From IMG/VR virus record IMGVR_UViG_3300009370_000003: 64,000 nucleotides of DNA. One strand, given 5' to 3'. The translations under genes were made by a program, and so were the position numbers. This stretch comes from a virus. Positions within the stretch are counted from its first letter, which is position 1; the number at the start of each line of letters is the position of its first letter. This document shows, one piece after another, positions 16,716-62,535 of this stretch. The notes beneath the pieces are model-generated. The model was not told the origin of the DNA and did no database searches. It was given only the letters and a program-made list of their open reading frames with translations.

Positions 16716-16931
16716 TCATTTGAATACTATCTTTGCCAGTCCCAGTTTGTTTCTTCGGTCTATCTCTACTCTAACCTTCGCTCTGAGCTTAGGTTTGATG
16801 CCCTCTTTGTTATATGCTTCAATTAAATCTGCATTTGATTTACATTTCATATAATCGTGGACAACACTTGTTTTGCCTGTCACACGGTCATATTGATTTG
16901 ATGATTTACTAAATTTAATCGGTGGCATCAC
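16716..16931 (-). CDS. small basic hypothetical protein
   Basis: KPKLRAKVRVEIDRR motif. Confidence 0.65.
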   Translation of the reverse strand: MMPPIKFSKSSNQYDRVTGKTSVVHDYMKCKSNADLIEAYNKEGIKPKLRAKVRVEIDRRNKLGLAKIVFK

Positions 16932-17589
16932 TCTCCTCTAGTTTAATGTCTATTGGTAATCGAATAGCGTTCTCTATATATAAATCGTTTAACTCCTCAT
17001 TAGGGATTGGCTCACCGAACCATATTGCAAGACAATACCTTTCTCCATACTGTATGGGTTCAACAGTGTGCCAAACTTCTGTTGAATTATTAAATGCAAC
17101 TATGGTTCCTCTTTTAGTTAAGAATCTATGGCCACCGACATTGAGTTGACCACCTATGAAATGGTCGTTTAAGAATACTATTGCTGTCCCAGTGTCATTA
17201 TCATCAGCAATGTCCATATGCCAAGGGAAATGACTGCCCTCTTCATACTTTATTATCTGCATGTAATTGATTCTTCCAAATGCCCACCCTTTGGGTAATG
17301 CCCATTCAATTCTTTCTAGGATATAATCTCGCTCTGGGCCGGCATATACATTGCAATGTATTTTACCACCGTGTTCATAAGCGTGGTTTTGACCGTCAAA
17401 CTCTTTATCTACTGGTGTAAATTTACTATCGGCGATTGACTCTACTTCAACGAATGGTATTTCATTAAACACATTTATTATTTCATCACATATCCACCCT
17501 TGTAATACTTCGTCATGAATAACCATAAAGTTACCACTATTCTGTTTTGGTTGATCGGTCTGTGTGCCTGTTACGGTTTGTTTGGGCAT
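16915..17589 (-). CDS. 2OG-Fe(II) oxygenase
   Basis: KYEEGSHFPWHMD, FLNDHFIGG, WHTVEPI and GERYCL. Confidence 0.9.
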   Translation of the reverse strand: MPKQTVTGTQTDQPKQNSGNFMVIHDEVLQGWICDEIINVFNEIPFVEVESIADSKFTPVDKEFDGQNHAYEHGGKIHCNVYAGPERDYILERIEWALPKGWAFGRINYMQIIKYEEGSHFPWHMDIADDNDTGTAIVFLNDHFIGGQLNVGGHRFLTKRGTIVAFNNSTEVWHTVEPIQYGERYCLAIWFGEPIPNEELNDLYIENAIRLPIDIKLEESDATD

Positions 17590-18278
17590 TATTTTATCCT
17601 CGGGTAATAGAACATAACTTGTGAGTATCTATAGTTGTCTTTGTATACATTATAATCTGTTATATATGCACCATGCATTTTATTGCCTGTGAATAGAGCT
17701 GCACGATTAAATTTAGCTGGTATGATATGTTTTAAATCCATCATTTCTTCTACTGGTTGTAGTAATCCCTCTTGTTCCATATTTGGAACCCAACCCGCTT
17801 CATATACTGCAGTTCCACCATTCTCTTGTTTATCAAGATAGACTAACATATTAATAACTGCTTGATTGTCGGGGTCTTCAAAGTTTCCGTCTATGTGTGG
17901 GTAGTGTTGCAAGTGAGGGTCAAAGACATTAATAGTCTTGAAACAATTAACCTCTATATCATCTCGGTATTCATAGTCTCCTTTCCACCATTTCTCTCTA
18001 CATATTTCAAGGATTCTCTCATTTGCGTTTCTCCATAGTCTTGTAGGGTGTCCTACCTTATCAACTATCCTTGCATCAATATAATCTATTCCATTAGGTG
18101 ATTGTCTTTCTTCATTGTATTTCCATAATGGAATATCTCTTTTGGAGATATGAGCATAGACAGCTTCAGGGTCTTCATAATAATTGTCTATTGTGAAACA
18201 CTGTAAATCTTCATGCCATTCAATATCCCATTCCTCTGAAGCTTGCTTGTATAAACTGTCGATACTATAGAAACTCAT
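17589..18278 (-). CDS. 2OG-Fe(II) oxygenase-like protein
   Basis: IDNYYEDP, PHID, LVYL..GGTAVY, FNRAALF..MHGA and RYSQ. Confidence 0.8.
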   Translation of the reverse strand: MSFYSIDSLYKQASEEWDIEWHEDLQCFTIDNYYEDPEAVYAHISKRDIPLWKYNEERQSPNGIDYIDARIVDKVGHPTRLWRNANERILEICREKWWKGDYEYRDDIEVNCFKTINVFDPHLQHYPHIDGNFEDPDNQAVINMLVYLDKQENGGTAVYEAGWVPNMEQEGLLQPVEEMMDLKHIIPAKFNRAALFTGNKMHGAYITDYNVYKDNYRYSQVMFYYPRIK

Positions 18279-19002
18279 ATGACAACTCCGTCCCTTCTTC
18301 GTTATTGTTTATAGGGCTGTTATGTTTTAAGTTAAATGATATTGCAACTCGTCTAAAGTCACCTTCCTCTCGATTGATAGAATGAAATACATTACTCGGC
18401 CACATAAAACATTCTCCTTGAGTCGGAGTGATTTGTATATCTTGGTGATTGCCCGTTTGTCCTATAGCCACTGTGTTCGGCATATGTTCTTGTTTCATTT
18501 CGTCTCTTTTATGTCCCCAACTAAATTGTGATTGAATATTTGGACTGTGGAAATTTATGGGTTGGCCACCGTCATTCACTGGATAGTATGTTCCACTGAC
18601 CATTGAGTCTTGGTGATTATGTGGTAGGTGGTCGAGGTCTGCTTGCCAAACACTAACCCATGAGAATAGGTGAATATCATGTCTGCTTAAATTAGAGACT
18701 TCCATATGCCATTGGGATTGAATGAAAGATATGTAAGTATCTTTAACTTGATTTGCAAAATCTTCATACCAAGGAAACTCACACATTTCTTGTCTTTGTT
18801 CTTCAAAGAAATAGGTTGTGTAATATCGTCTTGGGTCGTCTTCGAATTGTTTGATTTTATCAATCAGTGATTCACAATCTTTTGCCACACCTTCATGTGG
18901 TAAAAGAAGACCACCTCTTAAAAAAGGTGTGGGGAATATGTAGTCAACTACATATGAGAATGGTTGAAAACTATTCTCGTTATTGATTATCGGGGGCTTC
19001 AT
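18265..19002 (-). CDS. 2OG-Fe(II) oxygenase-like protein
   Basis: IFPTP, PHNH..VSGTYY, WPSNVFHS and RVAISFN. Confidence 0.85.
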   Translation of the reverse strand: MKPPIINNENSFQPFSYVVDYIFPTPFLRGGLLLPHEGVAKDCESLIDKIKQFEDDPRRYYTTYFFEEQRQEMCEFPWYEDFANQVKDTYISFIQSQWHMEVSNLSRHDIHLFSWVSVWQADLDHLPHNHQDSMVSGTYYPVNDGGQPINFHSPNIQSQFSWGHKRDEMKQEHMPNTVAIGQTGNHQDIQITPTQGECFMWPSNVFHSINREEGDFRRVAISFNLKHNSPINNNEEGTELSYEFL

Positions 19003-19048: not shown

Positions 19049-19255
19049 TCAGTCTTCAAATGAAACTACTATCTCACATATATGGTCTGTATCATTACAA
19101 AATTCTTTTACGAAATCTGAAGCAAAGAGTAATTCCTCTCTGCTTCTGACTTCTAATCTGACAACATTTCTGTTATCAATTTCGGTTGAATTGCTTTTGA
19201 CCAATTCATCGGTGAGCTCATTACGATTTCTGAATTGTCGTAAGAGGCTTACTCT
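19049..19255 (-). CDS. 68-codon -1-frame extension of the upstream lipoprotein (putative programmed frameshift product)
   Basis: open frame RVSLLRQFRNRNELTDE...IVVSFED*; no ATG; begins at the slippery site CCCAAAA (19255-19261). Confidence 0.55.
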   Translation of the reverse strand, partial: RVSLLRQFRNRNELTDELVKSNSTEIDNRNVVRLEVRSREELLFASDFVKEFCNDTDHICEIVVSFED

Positions 19256-19527
19256 TTTGGGCTTTCTGTCGCTTCTTCACCTTGTATCGCATTAGTTTCT
19301 TCATCGATGTAATCGGCAGCTTCCGCTACAACACCTGCTGTGGTATCACCCACAAATGCAGCTGCATCAACAACATCTTCTGTTACTGCTGAAACAATTT
19401 GAGAAGTACCAGTTACAACTGAATCAACAGTGCCTGTGACAACAGTTTTACCTGCTTCCCAAACTCCGCCGACTGTTGAACAACCAGCAATTAAGACTAG
19501 AAAACTTATAGCTATTAAGTTTTTCAT
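19249..19527 (-). CDS. late lipoprotein with amphipathic V/T/A-rich repeats
   Basis: LIAG-C lipobox followed by CSTV; late promoter at 19612-19617. Confidence 0.8.
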   Translation of the reverse strand: MKNLIAISFLVLIAGCSTVGGVWEAGKTVVTGTVDSVVTGTSQIVSAVTEDVVDAAAFVGDTTAGVVAEAADYIDEETNAIQGEEATESPKE

Positions 19528-19752
19528 ATCTGTTCTTCCTTATTATTATTATTATTATTACTGCTCAAACTGAGCCAGTAGATTATTTGCACTCCATGTG
19601 CAACAATATAGTATTTAGGTGTTAATGGTTCTCCAAAAGCTCATTTAAATGGGCTGTGTGATACCAAATGTCATACATTATCTCCAGTGCATGAAGCACT
19701 AGCATAATAGACAATAGCAATGCACATATCTTTAACCACTTTATCTGATGTT

Positions 19753-20301
19753 TCACTCTTTATCTTTATCTCGTGGGAATAGACCGACACTTGGTCTTCT
19801 TGATTCATCCTCTAATTTCACTCCAACACCGACTGCTGGTTCATCTTTAATGGTGACATTCCTATAATATATAATGACTTCACCCATCTGTTTGATGTAT
19901 CGTCTTAATTCTTGCATATTTGCAGACATGGCTTCATAGTCACCAATCGTAGTTGCAACAAATACGACGCTTCCACCATTCTTATCTTTAATGTCATCTA
20001 AGAATCTATCAAGATAAGTATAACCTTCTGGCCAATCAGGATTCTCTTTACCCAGTTTACAAGATTTGTCTTCATTTCTTTCTCTTATACCTTCCTCATT
20101 CTTGAGACAAGGATTGGCAATCTTTGCTTCAGATACAACATACCATTGTGGTTCAATCAAATTGATTTCCCTTGGTAATTGAGGTTGCATGATTTCAATC
20201 TCTATGGGTTTGGAAACTATCTCCACCTCTTTGGTTCCCATTAGGGAACACGAACTAAGGAGTGTTACCGCTATTAAGGCTGCTAAGCTCTTTGCTATCA
20301 T
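19753..20301 (-). CDS. outer-membrane spanin (o-spanin)-like lipoprotein
   Basis: LSSC lipobox, Pro-rich segment, C-terminal N..EL.RYI.Q...I.YY; overlaps the i-spanin gene. Confidence 0.7.
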   Translation of the reverse strand: MIAKSLAALIAVTLLSSCSLMGTKEVEIVSKPIEIEIMQPQLPREINLIEPQWYVVSEAKIANPCLKNEEGIRERNEDKSCKLGKENPDWPEGYTYLDRFLDDIKDKNGGSVVFVATTIGDYEAMSANMQELRRYIKQMGEVIIYYRNVTIKDEPAVGVGVKLEDESRRPSVGLFPRDKDKE

Positions 20302-57671: not shown

Positions 57672-58547
57672 TTAATCTTGTGTTACTGTAATTGTGCAAC
57701 CGCCGACTGTATAACAAGCTTGAGACAAAGTATATGACTGAGCTGAGCCTGCGTGTTGCGTTAAATCTAAAGTAGTTCCATAAGTACCATTCAAAGTAAT
57801 ATTTGCAGTATGTTGAGCATTACCGTCTTGAAGATAGTCAACAATATTAGAGTCATTATGAACTGTTAAGTTTAATGTCTTTGAACTGTCTCCTTTCTGT
57901 TTTCCAAACACATCATTGTCATCTCCATAGAGATAGATTCTTGCTGAATGTCCGTCACAATTATTGTTTGCACAATTCCTTTGCTGTCCTTTTATTGAAT
58001 TATCACTACCATGGATATCTATGGTGACAGTATGATTACCGCCGTCATTATTATCTATTGACCATGTAGTGTCGTTACGGTTTGAGAATTCATATCCTTG
58101 GGCCCACCAAAGTGTATTGTCATCTCCATATGCTATGTGGAACTGAATGTCGTTTTTACCGCAGGACGAATTTTTCGTGCAGTTTTGGTAGAGTTTAAGT
58201 GATTGTCTTTCTCCGTCAATATCGCCACCCCAACCATAACCTGAGCCCCAGCTGGGGGAATCATTTGCGTATCCAATTTCATTATTGTTTCCTTTTTGTA
58301 AGATTTCTATATCGTAATCGTCTCCGTCTCCAAGTGAGAAAAAGATATTGTTGTTGAATCCTTCTTGGTCGATAGTTAGGTCGAGATTATCTCCACCCGC
58401 TGTGACCTGATTAATATTGATACGGTTATCATCATCAGCAAATGCTTTAATTGCTGAAAATAACACCATGAGTGTAAAACACCCTATGAATAATTTTGCT
58501 GACCAGTCCAATTTTCCCTCAGTTTGTTTCACCCACAAATCCACCAA
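57672..58547 (-). CDS. secreted curlin-like repeat protein
   Basis: AFA signal-peptide cleavage; I.Q.G..N repeats (DQEGFNN, LQKGNNN, LYGDDN, LQDGN). Confidence 0.7.
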   Translation of the reverse strand: MVDLWVKQTEGKLDWSAKLFIGCFTLMVLFSAIKAFADDDNRININQVTAGGDNLDLTIDQEGFNNNIFFSLGDGDDYDIEILQKGNNNEIGYANDSPSWGSGYGWGGDIDGERQSLKLYQNCTKNSSCGKNDIQFHIAYGDDNTLWWAQGYEFSNRNDTTWSIDNNDGGNHTVTIDIHGSDNSIKGQQRNCANNNCDGHSARIYLYGDDNDVFGKQKGDSSKTLNLTVHNDSNIVDYLQDGNAQHTANITLNGTYGTTLDLTQHAGSAQSYTLSQACYTVGGCTITVTQD

Positions 58548-58700
58548 ACAAGTAAAACAAGAATTACACCTTCAGCCCATGCTATCCAAAGTGCTTGGTA
58601 ATCTGTAAGGTTGAATCTATCGATAAACTTCCAACAAAGTCTTTCGTGCCATTCTAAAAAGTCCTTTAAATATTTCATATTTACTCCTAATGTCTTTTAT

Positions 58701-59849
58701 TTAGTTAGTTTGCCTGATTACAATTTCAATATTGGTGTCTCCTTGACCGAAATCAATAATCCCTTCATACCCGTCTAAAGTTAAATCTAAGTATCCTAAA
58801 CCTCCAGCTGCAATGATTATCTCAATCTTTCCATTCACATCTCTATAGAGATATAGGTCTCCGTCTTGGACAAATACATTAAACTGTGAGTCTTTATTGA
58901 ATCCTTGGACTGCACCTTTAATATTGAATTGTCCTAGGGTTGCTCCACCACCAGTTGAGCCTGACCCTTTAATCTTTTTATCTAGTGCTTCTACCACATC
59001 TAATAAATCTGTCAAGAAGTCAACTCCAAGCATATCTATATCAAGCTCAGTGAAATCATCTTCCATGGTATCTTCGAGTTCGTCTGACTCTAAATCATTG
59101 AACTCTAAAAAGTCTACATCTAGTATTCCAGTATCGTCATTTTGGTCGTCAGCGACAGCGTCTTCTATTGCTTGTTTAACTTCCGCAGGTGGAGAAACAA
59201 TAAACATGTTATCAATCATTGAAGGTGTTATGTTTTGAATAATAACATTTTGTGTTGGAGGAGATTCCAAAGTAGAAACCATAGTTGCCTGATATGGAAG
59301 ATTGAGTAAGGTTTCTCCACCCTCATTAAATACTTTTATCTCACCACTAGAACCACCTGTTTCATCAGGTAGCAGAATCACGAGTGTTCTCCCGAGCTCG
59401 TCAATAGTAGTTGTAAAATCTGTGCCGTTGATTGCTATTTGAGCTGTCGGCGTTGAAATATCTATGTTTGCTTTCTTTATTTTTTTCCCTTTCCCTGAAG
59501 CAAACCTTGCTGTTCCTTGAACCATTCTCAAGGACATTTTTGATAATGAGGGATTAGGGTCATAGTATACTTCGTCTATGTATACTACTGTGTGTTCGAT
59601 TAAATCAAGTTCCTCTTCGTCTAAGAACTCAATCTTCATTCTGCCGTTTACTGTTTCGGCTTCGTCATACAAAAAAATGTCACCACCGACATTATTCTGT
59701 TGCACTTCATTGTTTCTAACTATCTGGCCTATACCAGTAGACTCAACAATGTCTCCAATGGGGTCTGCAAATGCGACCCCACTGAATAACAATATATTAA
59801 GAATCGTTAGCTGCGTCTTTCTGATTGATTTGAATAACTGCATTATCAC
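58701..59849 (-). CDS. FecR-domain periplasmic protein with an acidic tail
   Basis: IG.I....G, I.FLD, G..RF.SG and I.TPTA.IAINGTDF. Confidence 0.85.
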   Translation of the reverse strand: MIMQLFKSIRKTQLTILNILLFSGVAFADPIGDIVESTGIGQIVRNNEVQQNNVGGDIFLYDEAETVNGRMKIEFLDEEELDLIEHTVVYIDEVYYDPNPSLSKMSLRMVQGTARFASGKGKKIKKANIDISTPTAQIAINGTDFTTTIDELGRTLVILLPDETGGSSGEIKVFNEGGETLLNLPYQATMVSTLESPPTQNVIIQNITPSMIDNMFIVSPPAEVKQAIEDAVADDQNDDTGILDVDFLEFNDLESDELEDTMEDDFTELDIDMLGVDFLTDLLDVVEALDKKIKGSGSTGGGATLGQFNIKGAVQGFNKDSQFNVFVQDGDLYLYRDVNGKIEIIIAAGGLGYLDLTLDGYEGIIDFGQGDTNIEIVIRQTN

Positions 59850-60576
59850 TTGTTATATCTAATGTAATTAAAGCATTTGGAGTTGCACAACTGTTTCCAG
59901 CTCCACTTACACATGTTCCTGATATCTGATTGATATCCACATCTGCACTATCTCCTGTTAATTCAACCGTCATTTCGTTTGCACCATCTTTCTGTAATGT
60001 ATTAACATTATTTGAGTCACCAGTTATATCCCAGTTCCAAACAACATCATCGGATTCAAAATCCAAATCAAATACATTCGAAGAACCCACTAAGACTAAA
60101 TCTGCATTTAATCTTTCTGCTCCTAAACCATATCCTTGGTCAATGTCAAAGATGTTTGAATCTCCTTGAACAGTGAAAAGATAATCAGTAGCATCTGCTG
60201 ACCCTACATTACCAATGTTCCAGTCTATCTTGTTCGAATCACCTGTGAAGGTTAATGTATATTTCGAACTGTCTGCAACAACGGGCCCGAATAAGACATT
60301 CTGATTACCAGTAAAGTCTAAATCGAACTCCAAAGTTTGTCCTGTAATAAGCATGGCGGTTATGCTTCCGCTGGAACCATCGTTACCACCTATCTTATTA
60401 CCAAAACCTATTTGGTCAATGTATATTTTTAATGTATCACCCGTTTGGGTAATCTTAATTTCATTGTCATCAGTGGCTGCTCCGAAAACGATAGGCGAAG
60501 CCAATAATAATATTGCTCCTAATAAACTAATTAGTTTCTTCATTTTCGTTATACCCCTCGGGGAACTTTTCGTCAT
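59797..60576 (-). CDS. secreted curlin-like beta-solenoid protein (probable start MKKLIS at 60543)
   Basis: signal peptide; periodic QIGFGN, FTGNQN, FTGDSN, VQGDSN, LVGSSN and ITGDSN. Confidence 0.7.
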   Translation of the reverse strand: MTKSSPRGITKMKKLISLLGAILLLASPIVFGAATDDNEIKITQTGDTLKIYIDQIGFGNKIGGNDGSSGSITAMLITGQTLEFDLDFTGNQNVLFGPVVADSSKYTLTFTGDSNKIDWNIGNVGSADATDYLFTVQGDSNIFDIDQGYGLGAERLNADLVLVGSSNVFDLDFESDDVVWNWDITGDSNNVNTLQKDGANEMTVELTGDSADVDINQISGTCVSGAGNSCATPNALITLDITSDNAVIQINQKDAANDS

Positions 60577-61456
60577 ACCCCGTTATGTTCCAAAAACCTC
60601 TTTCGTGTCCTTGGTATACTAATTCCAGCACTCCAGCTTCAATAGCTGTTCGCACTGCGTAAGTCACTGACTCATTATTTCCAATGCCATCCTCTATCTC
60701 TATTAATTGAGTTCCTTGTTCTACGAAACGGAAAACATCGCCTCCCGTTCCATAACTCAATATAGTCTTTCGAGTTTGGACATTTAATAAAACCTCTCCA
60801 GTAAGAACTGATACAGCTCTTATTGAAATGGTCACGACATCTTGACGATATCGTTTACTATAACCAATACCTAGTGTCCGTGCGCCTCGTCCACCTGTTC
60901 TTATATTGGTATCATAACCAATTACTCCACCCTCTATTATCATACCCGCAAAGAGTAGTGGTTGTATTCCTTCGGCTTCGTCTTTACCTTCAGCCTTAGC
61001 AAATTCTGTTCTTGCAGACCTAATAATCTGCCTTTCTCTAACTAAGTGGTCTATACCACTTCGTTCTACTACCCTAAACCAAGTACCATTTCCAGCCGTT
61101 TTAAGAGCGTCTATGACCATTTCTTGTCCACCTTGGGTCACTGCAGTAGAGAAGCTTGCAATGTTGTCTACGGACTTCCTCTGTCCAGTCTTATCTAAGA
61201 ACTGATAAACTGCAACTACTGGCATCTCTTCTGCTGGTGGTAATCTTAATAGTTCAAGAAATGAGGGTAGTCTTACTACTTCGGGGTCTTCCACACAAAT
61301 ATATTTTCGTGCAAACTGTTTCTTTACCCCAGTGTATACATCTTTCTTAAACCCTTCGTCCCAGCGACCACAATTTTGTGGGTCGTCTGTCCACTTAGGA
61401 ATTGAAGCACAGCTACTCAATACTAAAAGTAATGCTAATGAAAGAACCTTAATCAT
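60527..61456 (-). CDS. csgG: curli secretion channel lipoprotein
   Basis: LSSC lipobox, VAVYQFLDKTGQRK, FSTAVTQG, WFRVVER, ERQIIR and EGGVIGYD. Confidence 0.95.
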   Translation of the reverse strand: MIKVLSLALLLVLSSCASIPKWTDDPQNCGRWDEGFKKDVYTGVKKQFARKYICVEDPEVVRLPSFLELLRLPPAEEMPVVAVYQFLDKTGQRKSVDNIASFSTAVTQGGQEMVIDALKTAGNGTWFRVVERSGIDHLVRERQIIRSARTEFAKAEGKDEAEGIQPLLFAGMIIEGGVIGYDTNIRTGGRGARTLGIGYSKRYRQDVVTISIRAVSVLTGEVLLNVQTRKTILSYGTGGDVFRFVEQGTQLIEIEDGIGNNESVTYAVRTAIEAGVLELVYQGHERGFWNITGYDEKFPEGYNENEETN

Positions 61457-61992
61457 TAGGTTCCTCCGTCGCCACCCCCGCCATCGACAGGAATCGCGTC
61501 AGGGTCTTGTGCAAAATTACCAGTTCCTATAGGTATTTCAATAATGGTTGATGTTCCGTCTTCACCTATAATGGTCATTCGTATGAACTCAACCCCTGCT
61601 TCATCTGTTAATACTTCCCAAGTAATAGTGTTTCCTTCTAGAATAAATGAACCAAATGAACTTGAATTATCATTTGAGAACATAGATTCAACTAACTGTT
61701 TTGCAAGTGTAGCATAAATTCTGCTTTCTAAGTTTCTAATAAATTTTGCAAGAACCGTATTGTCTGCTTCTCTTTCTGCAGCTTTCCTAGCTGACTCCAA
61801 AGCATCTTCGATTTGTTTCTTCCGAGAAAATTCCTGATTCTCGATAGTTAAATAATGAGCACCCTGACCCTGTTTACTAAACGATGGATTTCCAAATTTA
61901 TGAACAATCTCATCTGCGTAAACATTCGTTGCATGTAGAAATAAAACCCCTACAATGATAATGCTACTTACGACTTTTTTTATTACTGACAT
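61456..61992 (-). CDS. csgF: curli assembly factor
   Basis: signal peptide, then EIVHKFGNPSF; F..NLESRIY..L. Confidence 0.85.
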   Translation of the reverse strand: MSVIKKVVSSIIIVGVLFLHATNVYADEIVHKFGNPSFSKQGQGAHYLTIENQEFSRKKQIEDALESARKAAEREADNTVLAKFIRNLESRIYATLAKQLVESMFSNDNSSSFGSFILEGNTITWEVLTDEAGVEFIRMTIIGEDGTSTIIEIPIGTGNFAQDPDAIPVDGGGGDGGT

Positions 61993-62242
61993 TCTTTTCC
62001 TCTTGTTCTTGCTGTTCCTTATATTCTAGCACTGTGTTAACCTTCTGCTGTAAACGAATCAAGTCGTTATCTAACATTCTAATTTGGTCAAGAAGTCTTA
62101 TAAGGATTGTATTAGATTTTCCTAGAGCAGGTTTTAGTTCTTGTGTGACAAATTTCCACACAAAAAATATAAAATACCCCATGCCCAGTGCGAGAACCAC
62201 GGGAAAACCGAATTCTGCAATCATCTGAGCTATGGTATTCAT
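61964..62242 (-). CDS. single-TM coiled-coil protein
   Basis: EFGFP...FIFF...IRMLDNDLIR. Confidence 0.75.
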   Translation of the reverse strand: MNTIAQMIAEFGFPVVLALGMGYFIFFVWKFVTQELKPALGKSNTILIRLLDQIRMLDNDLIRLQQKVNTVLEYKEQQEQEEKNVSNKKSRK

Positions 62243-62535
62243 TAGTCCCTACGAGAATCTATCTTCTCATCTTCTATAAAATTCTCTGCACGAGCAATTC
62301 TATCAATGTCTGGCTTTAAATCTAAAGCCGAAGAAACCAATAAGTCAATCTTAATCATATCATTGTTCATCATTCGAACACGATTCTCTAAAGATTCCAT
62401 AATACCAGCCAATCCTTTTACTTGTCCTACCACTGACTCTAAAATATACTTCAAAGTCAGGAATATAAAGAAGGCCATAATCACTGCACTTCCTATAGGA
62501 ATGCCCACTTCACTCAAAAATGTTAATATATCCAT
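62242..62535 (-). CDS. single-TM coiled-coil protein (paralog of the downstream gene)
   Basis: EVGIP...FIFL...VRMMNNDMIK. Confidence 0.75.
   Translation of the reverse strand: MDILTFLSEVGIPIGSAVIMAFFIFLTLKYILESVVGQVKGLAGIMESLENRVRMMNNDMIKIDLLVSSALDLKPDIDRIARAENFIEDEKIDSRRD

What the first reader, a model, noticed from the sequence alone, without database searches (positions are those of the whole stretch)
19049..19527. Hidden programmed -1 frameshift producing short and long forms of a lipoprotein
Seen: the 92-aa lipoprotein ends AGC CCA AAA GAG TAA. C CCA AAA (19261-19255) is an in-register X XXY YYZ heptamer. Eight nt later a stem can form (CTCTTACGA at 19246-19238 with TCGTAATGAG at 19226-19217). 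The -1 frame is closed by a TGA six codons before the slip site, has no ATG, and stays open for 68 codons to a TGA at 19051-19049. It fills the otherwise empty gap up to the next late promoter. The predicted product is 159 aa, ending ...SPK-RVSLLRQFRNRNELTDE...FCNDTDHICEIVVSFED with a Cys pair suited to the periplasm. CCCAAAA is a known phage slippery site in capsid and tail genes; its use in an envelope lipoprotein beside the spanins is unusual.
Basis: partly seen in the sequence, partly recalled or inferred. Interest (0 to 1): 0.78.

Follow-up and report, generated by a model that had tools for sequence, protein, structure and literature searches.

The report
Frameshift-extended lipoprotein of marine phages
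A small lipoprotein gene of an uncultured marine T4-like phage ends in a ribosome slip site and RNA hairpin kept in about 80 different relatives, so it very probably makes a 92-residue protein and a 159-residue one with a two-cysteine tail; the mechanism is classical, but I found no published case in this kind of gene.

Summary

**In the window (minus strand)**
- The lipoprotein gene 19527..19249 ends AGC CCA AAA GAG TAA.
- C CCA AAA (19261-19255) is in register.
- The -1 frame runs open to the TGA at 19051-19049.

**In relatives**
- I fetched 103 related loci, 81 of them distinct.
- 74 carry a perfect in-register X XXY YYZ heptamer in the last four codons: CCCAAAA/C, GGGAAAG/C or AAAAAAG.
- 5 carry G GAA AAG.
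- The first base of the heptamer is kept even when the codon that supplies it encodes a different amino acid.
- The same heptamer position occurs at 1 of 68 other window genes.
- A hairpin starts 5-6 nt after the heptamer, and its arms covary.
- The -1 product is conserved from the slip site to an invariant Cys-x6-7-Cys. It usually has no start codon and is almost never called as a gene.
- One relative lacks the extension, and it also lacks the heptamer.

**Mechanism and function**
The mechanism is a canonical -1 ribosomal frameshift, inferred and not shown experimentally. Function is unknown. The gene always follows a conserved small membrane protein and sits beside spanin, endolysin or curli-type genes.

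**Prior work**
This scan reached the same conclusion earlier on other genomes. I found no publication.

The parts
19249..19527 (-). Lipoprotein gene in the 0 frame, 92 aa (short form). The signal peptide with lipobox IAGC ends at the Cys16 codon, 19482-19480.
   Evidence: There are 106 homologs in marine metagenomes, and Cys16 is invariant. There is no Pfam or PHROG family. AlphaFold2 models it as one long helix at low confidence, mean pLDDT 62.
19255..19261 (-). Slippery heptamer C CCA AAA, in register with the 0 frame. It ends one codon before the stop.
   Evidence: A perfect in-register heptamer is present in 74 of 81 distinct relatives, and its type changes between clades. The rate among control genes is 1/68 and 5/259.
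19249..19251 (-). 0-frame stop codon TAA. It lies inside the spacer between the heptamer and the hairpin.
   Evidence: In all relatives the stop lies 0 or 3 nt after the last heptamer.
19215..19249 (-). RNA hairpin: core stem 19246-19238 with 19226-19217, one bulged U, 11-nt loop, plus two outer pairs. It is the putative frameshift stimulator.
   Evidence: One search gives -7.7 kcal/mol, z -1.46. In 29 clade members, 77.5% of cells are paired against 29-42% with slid partners, and 0 of 500 shuffles reach the observed covariation. Across 59 distinct sequences the mean z is -1.8 against -0.6 for controls, p = 7e-7.
19049..19255 (-). -1 frame extension: 68 new codons after the slip, plus the stop TGA at 19051-19049. 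The long form is 159 aa.
   Evidence: It is open in all relatives but two. It is conserved from the slip site onward. In the C-terminal domain pN/pS is 0.46 with an excess of third-position changes.
19052..19159 (-). Conserved C-terminal domain of the extension: a strand-like segment, a helix, and two invariant cysteines (codons 19099-19097 and 19078-19076).
   Evidence: Both Cys are invariant in 68 distinct sequences. AlphaFold2 gives pLDDT 76-84 for residues 31-70 of the extension, with a helix at 41-55.
19622..19756 (-). Neighbouring gene for a 44-aa single-pass membrane protein, N-terminus MKHQIKWLKI. Its GTG start overlaps the o-spanin stop (GTGA). It is part of the conserved module, not of the frameshift.
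   Evidence: A homolog lies directly upstream of the lipoprotein gene in most loci that hold enough upstream DNA, whatever the wider context.

Best explanation
The gene makes two proteins from one mRNA by a canonical programmed -1 ribosomal frameshift.

1. Most ribosomes read the 0 frame to TAA and release a 92-aa lipoprotein precursor.
2. A fraction pauses with CCA in the P site and AAA in the A site, held by a hairpin that begins 6-8 nt downstream.
3. On those ribosomes both tRNAs slip back one base to CCC and AAA.
4. Translation then continues in the -1 frame for 68 more codons.
5. This gives a 159-aa lipoprotein with the same lipid anchor and helical body, a basic linker, and a small domain closed by a Cys-x6-Cys pair. 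That pair probably forms a disulfide in the periplasm.

**Shown here:** the sequence anatomy and its conservation.

**Inferred:** the slippage itself and its efficiency. Also inferred is the role I think most likely: a fixed short-to-long ratio in an envelope-anchored assembly that works with the upstream small membrane protein in the phage's lysis or curli-type envelope functions.
For: **Slip site**
- The heptamer is in register at 19261-19255.
- Among 81 distinct relatives, 74 have a perfect X XXY YYZ in the last four codons and 5 have G GAA AAG.
- The type changed at least about 19 times on the protein tree while slipperiness was kept. This tree is poorly resolved.
- The first base is kept while the codon that holds it changes amino acid. 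Examples are AGC/AAC/GAC/TCC before CCA AAA, GAG/GCG/CCG/CAG before GGA AAG, and GCA/CCA/GAA before AAA AAG.
- The rate among control genes is 1/68 and 5/259.

**The -1 ORF**
- At least 15 distinct relatives have no ATG, GTG or TTG anywhere in it.
- Its product aligns from the slip site to two invariant Cys.
- In the C-terminal domain pN/pS is 0.46, with differences at codon positions 1, 2 and 3 of 1177, 766 and 1736.
- A profile of the extension finds only 10 proteins among 1.84 billion representatives, mostly fragments. The lipoprotein itself has more than 100 clusters.

**Hairpin**
- It starts 5-6 nt after the heptamer, and different clades use different arm sequences.

**Natural control**
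- L076 lacks the extension and also lacks any heptamer.

**Transcript**
- No terminator-like site lies between the stop and the extension.
Against: - There is no experimental evidence. No cultured phage in GenBank carries the gene: tblastn found nothing, and an HMM search of HTVC008M and Melnitz found nothing.
- In the window alone the hairpin is not significant (z -1.46).
- Selection on the linker is weak (pN/pS 0.77). Conservation just after the slip site could partly reflect the RNA stem rather than the protein.
- A few short contigs break the pattern:
  - L072 has the extension in the +1 frame.
  - L062 has a TGA in the linker, followed directly by TTG.
  - L113 has an interrupted linker.
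  - L112 joins the domain to unrelated upstream DNA with its own ATG.
- No in-frame fused version was found among the 106 lipoprotein homologs.
Confidence: 0.87

Rival explanations
1. The downstream ORF is a separate small gene that starts on its own, at the TTG at 19204 or at a non-canonical codon. On this view the heptamer is incidental.
For: A TTG exists at 19204. Gene callers named a 56-aa TTG-started product in L062, where a TGA lies just upstream. L112 has an ATG-started copy of the domain in another context.
Against: - No Shine-Dalgarno-like motif precedes the TTG, and the TTG is not conserved.
- At least 15 distinct relatives have no ATG, GTG or TTG in the ORF.
- Similarity between relatives begins upstream of the TTG, at the slip site.
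- This reading does not explain a phase-locked heptamer in 79 of 81 sequences.
Confidence: 0.05
2. The extension is reached by termination and reinitiation, or some other coupling at the stop codon. The hairpin would then serve mRNA stability or pausing rather than slippage.
For: The stop lies 0-3 nt after the heptamer, inside the spacer. L062 shows a TGA-TTG junction.
Against: Most relatives have no restart codon near the stop. A reinitiation site would not require X XXY YYZ in the 0-frame register, with the first base kept against amino-acid change.
Confidence: 0.04
3. The apparent split is an assembly or sequencing indel, or a decaying gene. The real gene would be a single in-frame ORF, or the tail would be dead.
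For: Homopolymer runs such as CCC and AAAA are prone to indel errors. L072, a short contig, has the tail in a different frame next to a CCCC run.
Against: 81 distinct sequences come from independent samples and assemblers. They have different heptamers and all show the same -1 offset. None of them is in frame. The tail keeps its ORF and two invariant Cys.
Confidence: 0.01
4. The frame change is made by RNA polymerase slipping on the A run, not by the ribosome.
For: Some relatives have AAAAAAG or longer A runs.
Against: The window has only four A's. GGGAAAG and CCCAAAC relatives have three. A downstream hairpin at 5-6 nt is the layout of ribosomal frameshifting. That last point rests on established knowledge of dnaX and IS3-family sites.
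Confidence: 0.02

Closest known systems
Phage lambda G/GT tail assembly chaperone -1 frameshift and its analogues in tailed phages (Xu, Hendrix and Duda 2004, as cited in PMC3556154 and PMC10885494)
   Same: - The slip site sits in the last few codons of a short upstream ORF.
- G GGA AAG, the heptamer I recall for lambda G/GT (not checked here), is the commonest one in this family.
- The outcome is a short form plus a C-terminally extended form in a fixed ratio.
- The frameshift is conserved while sequences diverge.
   Different: - The protein is unrelated: an exported lipoprotein, not a cytoplasmic chaperone.
- The gene context is different: lysis, envelope or curli-type genes, not tail genes.
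- A conserved hairpin follows the site here. From memory, lambda G/GT needs no such structure.
E. coli dnaX tau/gamma and IS3/IS911-type transposase frameshift cassettes
   Same: A heptamer ending in A AAG or A AAA, followed by a stem-loop about 5-8 nt downstream. A AAA AAG itself is used by several clades of this family.
   Different: - In dnaX the shift gives a shorter product.
- In IS elements it fuses two enzyme domains.
- No upstream Shine-Dalgarno-like stimulator was examined here.
- Here the shift extends a structural envelope protein.
Phage T7 gene 10A/10B and phage A2 major head protein frameshifts (A2: reference 41 of PMC10885494)
   Same: A late phage gene with a -1 shift near its end adds a short C-terminal extension to a fraction of the molecules.
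   Different: Those are virion proteins. This one carries a lipoprotein signal peptide and is expected to be anchored in the host envelope.
Curli-type CsgG/CsgF gene cluster of pelagimyophages and phage Melnitz (PMC7029224, PMC9004378)
   Same: The window carries this cluster. In many relatives the frameshifting lipoprotein gene lies at the edge of the cluster.
   Different: Those papers do not mention this lipoprotein or any frameshift. HTVC008M and Melnitz lack the gene. In the window the two loci are 36 kb apart.

Membership tests
Canonical -1 programmed ribosomal frameshift cassette | Slippery heptamer X XXY YYZ in the register of the upstream frame | tested here: met
   C CCA AAA lies at 19261-19255. 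A perfect in-register heptamer is present in 74 of 81 distinct relatives and a near-heptamer in 5.
Canonical -1 programmed ribosomal frameshift cassette | The slip site is conserved at the nucleotide level beyond what the protein requires | tested here: met
   The first base is kept while its codon encodes S, N or D; E, A, P or Q; or A, P or E. The heptamer type is replaced many times on the tree. The rate among control genes is about 2%.
Canonical -1 programmed ribosomal frameshift cassette | Stimulatory RNA structure about 5-9 nt downstream | tested here: met
   The first paired base is 5-6 nt after the heptamer. Mean z is -1.8 against -0.6 in controls. The arms covary. The window's own stem is weak, at -7.7 kcal/mol and z -1.46.
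Canonical -1 programmed ribosomal frameshift cassette | The -1 ORF is coding, conserved, and lacks its own initiation signal | tested here: met
   There are a few exceptions on short contigs.
Canonical -1 programmed ribosomal frameshift cassette | Both products are detected, and the long one depends on the heptamer | not testable with these tools
   This needs reporter assays, mass spectrometry or ribosome profiling.
Bacterial lipoprotein (signal peptidase II substrate) | A basic N-terminus and hydrophobic core, then a lipobox [LVI][ASTVI][GAS]C | tested here: met
   The protein starts MKNLIAISFLVLIAGC. The Cys is invariant in 32 aligned homologs. Lipid modification itself was not tested.
Lambda-type tail assembly chaperone G/GT | Homology to the chaperone family and a position upstream of the tape measure gene | tested here: not met
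   There is no Pfam or PHROG hit. The neighbours are spanins and 2OG-Fe(II) oxygenases.
Outer-membrane spanin (Rz1 type) | Similarity to spanin families, and pairing with an inner-membrane spanin that has a long periplasmic domain | tested here: not met
   There is no spanin hit, while a separate i-spanin and o-spanin pair lies just upstream. The partner membrane protein is only 44 aa.
Curli / type VIII secretion accessory protein | Homology to a Csg protein, or constant linkage to csgG and csgF | tested here: inconclusive
   There is no homology. The gene is adjacent to curlin-repeat or CsgF/CsgG genes in more than 30 loci. It is 36 kb away in the window and absent from HTVC008M and Melnitz.

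The most novel reading that the evidence does not exclude
The frameshift would set a fixed ratio of short to long subunits in a helical, envelope-anchored lipoprotein assembly. That assembly, together with the conserved KWLK membrane protein, would be a so far unrecognised component of the lysis or curli-type (CsgG/CsgF) envelope machinery of marine myophages. The disulfide-closed tail would be the part that contacts the partner.
Probability: 0.2. Interest if true: 0.8.

Novelty: new member of a known kind. Interest (0 to 1): 0.68.

Why it matters
Few conserved -1 frameshift gene families are known in bacteria and phages. From memory and from PMC10885494 they are dnaX, insertion sequences, tail chaperones, some capsid genes and a handful of others.

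This one lies in an exported lipoprotein. Its comparative evidence is unusually clear: three interchangeable heptamers, covarying hairpins, and a natural loss of both tail and heptamer together.

- **Annotation:** it corrects the annotation of a widespread family of marine phage genes, whose tails are now invisible to gene callers.
- **Function:** it gives a handle on the unexplained envelope and curli-type modules of pelagimyophage-like phages.
- **Experiment:** it offers a compact natural cassette for testing frameshift efficiency.

Tried and rejected
- **GenBank phages:** DNA and protein searches with the locus and with two distant homologs found nothing. An HMM search of the whole HTVC008M and Melnitz genomes gave only a spurious hit inside a tape measure gene. 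There is therefore no cultured carrier.
- **Whole genome:** none is held for this window.
- **Pfam and PHROGs:** nothing for the lipoprotein, the tail, or the KWLK protein.
- **RNAalifold:** on the MAFFT alignment it predicted no structure, because the alignment is not structure-aware. I counted pairs on a hand-written structure instead.
- **AlphaFold2:** confidence was low to moderate, so I ran no fold search.
- **Whole-tail dN/dS:** only 0.56-0.58, so it is weak evidence on its own.
- **ESM Atlas:** only unnamed viral lipoprotein clusters.
- **Long form:** the full 159-aa protein could not be folded, because a joined sequence is not accepted by the tools.
- **Literature:** searches found no description.

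Full report
**1. What is in the window**

On the minus strand, the ORF 19527..19249 encodes a 92-aa protein. It begins MKNLIAISFLVLIAGC, a typical lipoprotein signal peptide with lipobox. It ends AGC CCA AAA GAG TAA.

C CCA AAA occupies 19261-19255, in the register of that frame. The -1 frame carries a TGA six codons upstream and is then open to the TGA at 19051-19049. It has no ATG and a single TTG, at 19204, with no Shine-Dalgarno-like motif.

A slip would give an 89 + 70 = 159-aa protein. On its own it is unremarkable, at -7.7 kcal/mol and z -1.46. No terminator-like site separates the two frames.

**2. What kind of genome this is**

- Nearly all genes lie on the minus strand.
- The DNA polymerase is a T4 gp43 type, 47% identical to those of cyanomyoviruses.
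- An inner and outer spanin pair lies just upstream of the lipoprotein gene.
- Three 2OG-Fe(II) oxygenase genes lie downstream.
- The window also carries CsgG- and CsgF-type genes and a curlin-repeat gene at about 57.7-62.5 kb. This is the curli-type cluster described for pelagimyophages and phage Melnitz (PMC7029224, PMC9004378).

The phage is therefore an uncultured relative of that group. HTVC008M and Melnitz themselves lack the lipoprotein gene, and no GenBank phage matched it.

**3. Comparative test of the slip site**

The lipoprotein has 106 homolog clusters in marine metagenomes. All are 60-122 aa long, and none carries the tail in frame.

I fetched 61 loci from viral contigs and 46 from metagenomes. 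Of these, 103 contain the stop codon and 81 are distinct.

| Slip site at the end of the gene | Distinct sequences |
|---|---|
| Perfect in-register X XXY YYZ in the last four codons (CCCAAAA, CCCAAAC, GGGAAAG, GGGAAAC, AAAAAAG, sometimes two in tandem) | 74 |
| G GAA AAG | 5 |
| Tail in the +1 frame (L072) | 1 |
| No tail and no heptamer (L076) | 1 |

- The 0-frame stop follows the last heptamer by 0 or 3 nt.
- The base that completes the heptamer is kept although its codon changes meaning. AGC, AAC, GAC or TCC precede CCA AAA. GAG, GCG, CCG or CAG precede GGA AAG. GCA, CCA or GAA precede AAA AAG.
- On a tree of 71 lipoproteins the heptamer type changes about 19 times. The tree is poorly resolved because the protein is short.
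- Among other genes, such a heptamer occurs at the end of 1 of 68 window genes and 5 of 259 ORFs of the related loci. One of those five is the lipoprotein itself.

**4. The -1 frame is coding and has no start of its own**

- In every locus but two, the -1 frame stays open for 35-69 codons past the stop, while the +1 frame closes quickly.
- At least 15 of the first 47 distinct sequences contain no ATG, GTG or TTG in that ORF. Where such codons occur they are scattered, and most lack a ribosome-binding motif.
- The products align from the slip site: K, then (R)V, then a Ser/Phe/Leu-rich stretch. A variable basic linker follows, then a strand-like segment and a helix. Two cysteines spaced 6-7 residues apart are invariant in 68 distinct sequences.
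- In the C-terminal domain pN/pS is 0.46, and differences fall 1177, 766 and 1736 on codon positions 1, 2 and 3 of the -1 frame. The linker is looser, at 0.77.
- A profile of the tail finds only ten proteins in 1.84 billion representatives, and most are contig-end fragments. This fits an ORF that gene callers cannot start.

**5. The hairpin**

In 59 distinct sequences, the 48 nt that begin 3 nt after the heptamer fold with mean z -1.8. The same stretch after 68 control stops gives -0.6 (Mann-Whitney p = 7e-7). The first paired base is 5-6 nt from the heptamer.

Distant clades have strong stems of quite different sequence, for example L047 at z -5.7, L050 at -5.4 and L012 at -4.4.

In the window's clade an outer GCUC/GAGC stem is kept and the inner stem covaries. 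Inner-stem variants include CGA/UCG, CUCGG/CCGAG, CUGGC/GCCAG, UCGUCG/CGACGA and AUCAAC/GUUGAU.

On a fixed column structure:
- 77.5% of cells pair, against 29-42% when the partners are slid.
- 27 cells show changes on both sides, against 11 expected.
- 0 of 500 shuffles reach the observed covariation score.

RNAalifold on the same alignment found nothing, because several sequences place the inner stem in other columns.

**6. Exceptions**

- **L076** has no tail and no heptamer. A promoter-like stretch and a primase-like gene follow its stop directly. This is the informative natural control.
- **L072**, a 1161-nt contig, has an intact tail in the +1 frame beside a CCCC run.
- **L062**, an 893-nt contig, has a TGA in the linker immediately followed by the TTG that a gene caller used. 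Only 13 nt upstream are available.
- **L113** has an interrupted linker.
- **L112** joins the domain to unrelated AT-rich DNA with an ATG.

All five are short, low-coverage contigs. They show that the domain might sometimes stand alone, but they do not explain the general pattern.

**7. Mechanism**

The layout is that of a canonical -1 ribosomal frameshift. The tRNAs reading CCA and AAA re-pair with CCC and AAA while the ribosome is held by the hairpin. The 0-frame stop lies inside the spacer.

Transcriptional slippage is unlikely with runs of only three or four identical bases.

The anatomy and its conservation are shown. Slippage, its efficiency and the existence of both proteins are inferred. 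I put the probability of a real programmed frameshift at about 0.87.

**8. What the protein may do**

There is no Pfam or PHROG match. The ESM Atlas places the protein among unnamed viral lipoprotein clusters.

AlphaFold2 models the short form as a single long helix (pLDDT 62). It models the tail domain as a helix flanked by extended segments (pLDDT 76-84 for that part). Both are too uncertain for fold searches.

Context is more telling. A gene for a small single-pass membrane protein with the N-terminus MKH(M/Q)IKWLKI precedes the lipoprotein gene in nearly all loci. Sometimes one or two proteins of about 100 aa with two membrane segments lie between them.

The module sits in three kinds of place:
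- after the spanins, in the window's clade;
- after a T4-lysozyme-type endolysin and about 1 kb before csgF and csgG, in L050-L059;
- directly after a curlin-repeat secreted protein, in 26 loci.

My best guess is an envelope-anchored assembly whose short-to-long ratio is fixed by the frameshift, acting in lysis or in the curli-type system. This is inference only.

**9. Novelty**

I found no paper describing this. The two papers on the curli cluster mention neither the lipoprotein nor a frameshift. General searches gave nothing relevant.

Earlier reports of this same scan reached the same conclusion on homologous genes of other genomes. My tests were made independently on this window and on newly fetched loci.

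The mechanism is classical and the gene family is new for it, so I class this as a new member of a known kind.

Noticed in passing
window 19622-19756 (-): A 44-aa single-pass membrane protein begins MKHQIKWLKI. Its GTG start overlaps the o-spanin stop (GTGA). A homolog with an almost invariant N-terminus lies directly upstream of the lipoprotein gene in nearly all related loci. It has no Pfam or PHROG match. It could be a holin-like or partner protein.
   Followed up: partly
window 57672-62535 (-): This is a curli-type cluster: a curlin-repeat protein (58547..57672), a CsgG-like gene (61456..60527), a CsgF-like gene (61992..61456) and two small genes (62242..61964 and 62535..62242). It matches the cluster published for pelagimyophages and Melnitz. 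In many relatives the frameshifting lipoprotein gene lies at its edge.
   Followed up: partly
L026, L036-L038, L041, L043-L049, L051, L058-L060 (between the KWLK gene and the lipoprotein gene): One or two paralogous proteins of about 83-112 aa with two membrane segments are inserted in the module in many clades. They are absent from the window. They have no family match.
   Followed up: no
L076:157-700: This relative's lipoprotein ends KEEKK with no heptamer and no tail. A promoter-like stretch and a primase-like zinc-finger gene follow directly. The slip site and the tail are lost together.
   Followed up: yes
L072:590-860; L062:1-190: L072 carries an intact tail in the +1 frame next to a CCCC run. 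L062 has a TGA in the linker followed at once by TTG. These are either assembly errors on short contigs or alternative ways of reaching the tail.
   Followed up: partly
window 19540-19560 (-): Seven perfect TAA repeats run into the AAGGA ribosome-binding site of the lipoprotein gene. Another first-stage note describes hairpins in the same leader.
   Followed up: no
window 16915-19002 (-): Three consecutive 2OG-Fe(II) oxygenase-type genes (245, 229 and 224 aa) follow the tail. The same arrangement follows it in L001, L013 and L062.
   Followed up: no
L008:82-816, L009:278-2074; L109, L110: In L008 and L009 an adenylate/guanylate cyclase-type gene directly precedes the KWLK-lipoprotein module. 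I recognised it only by eye, from its motif. In HTVC008M and Melnitz a cyclase closes the curli cluster, but the module is missing there.
   Followed up: no
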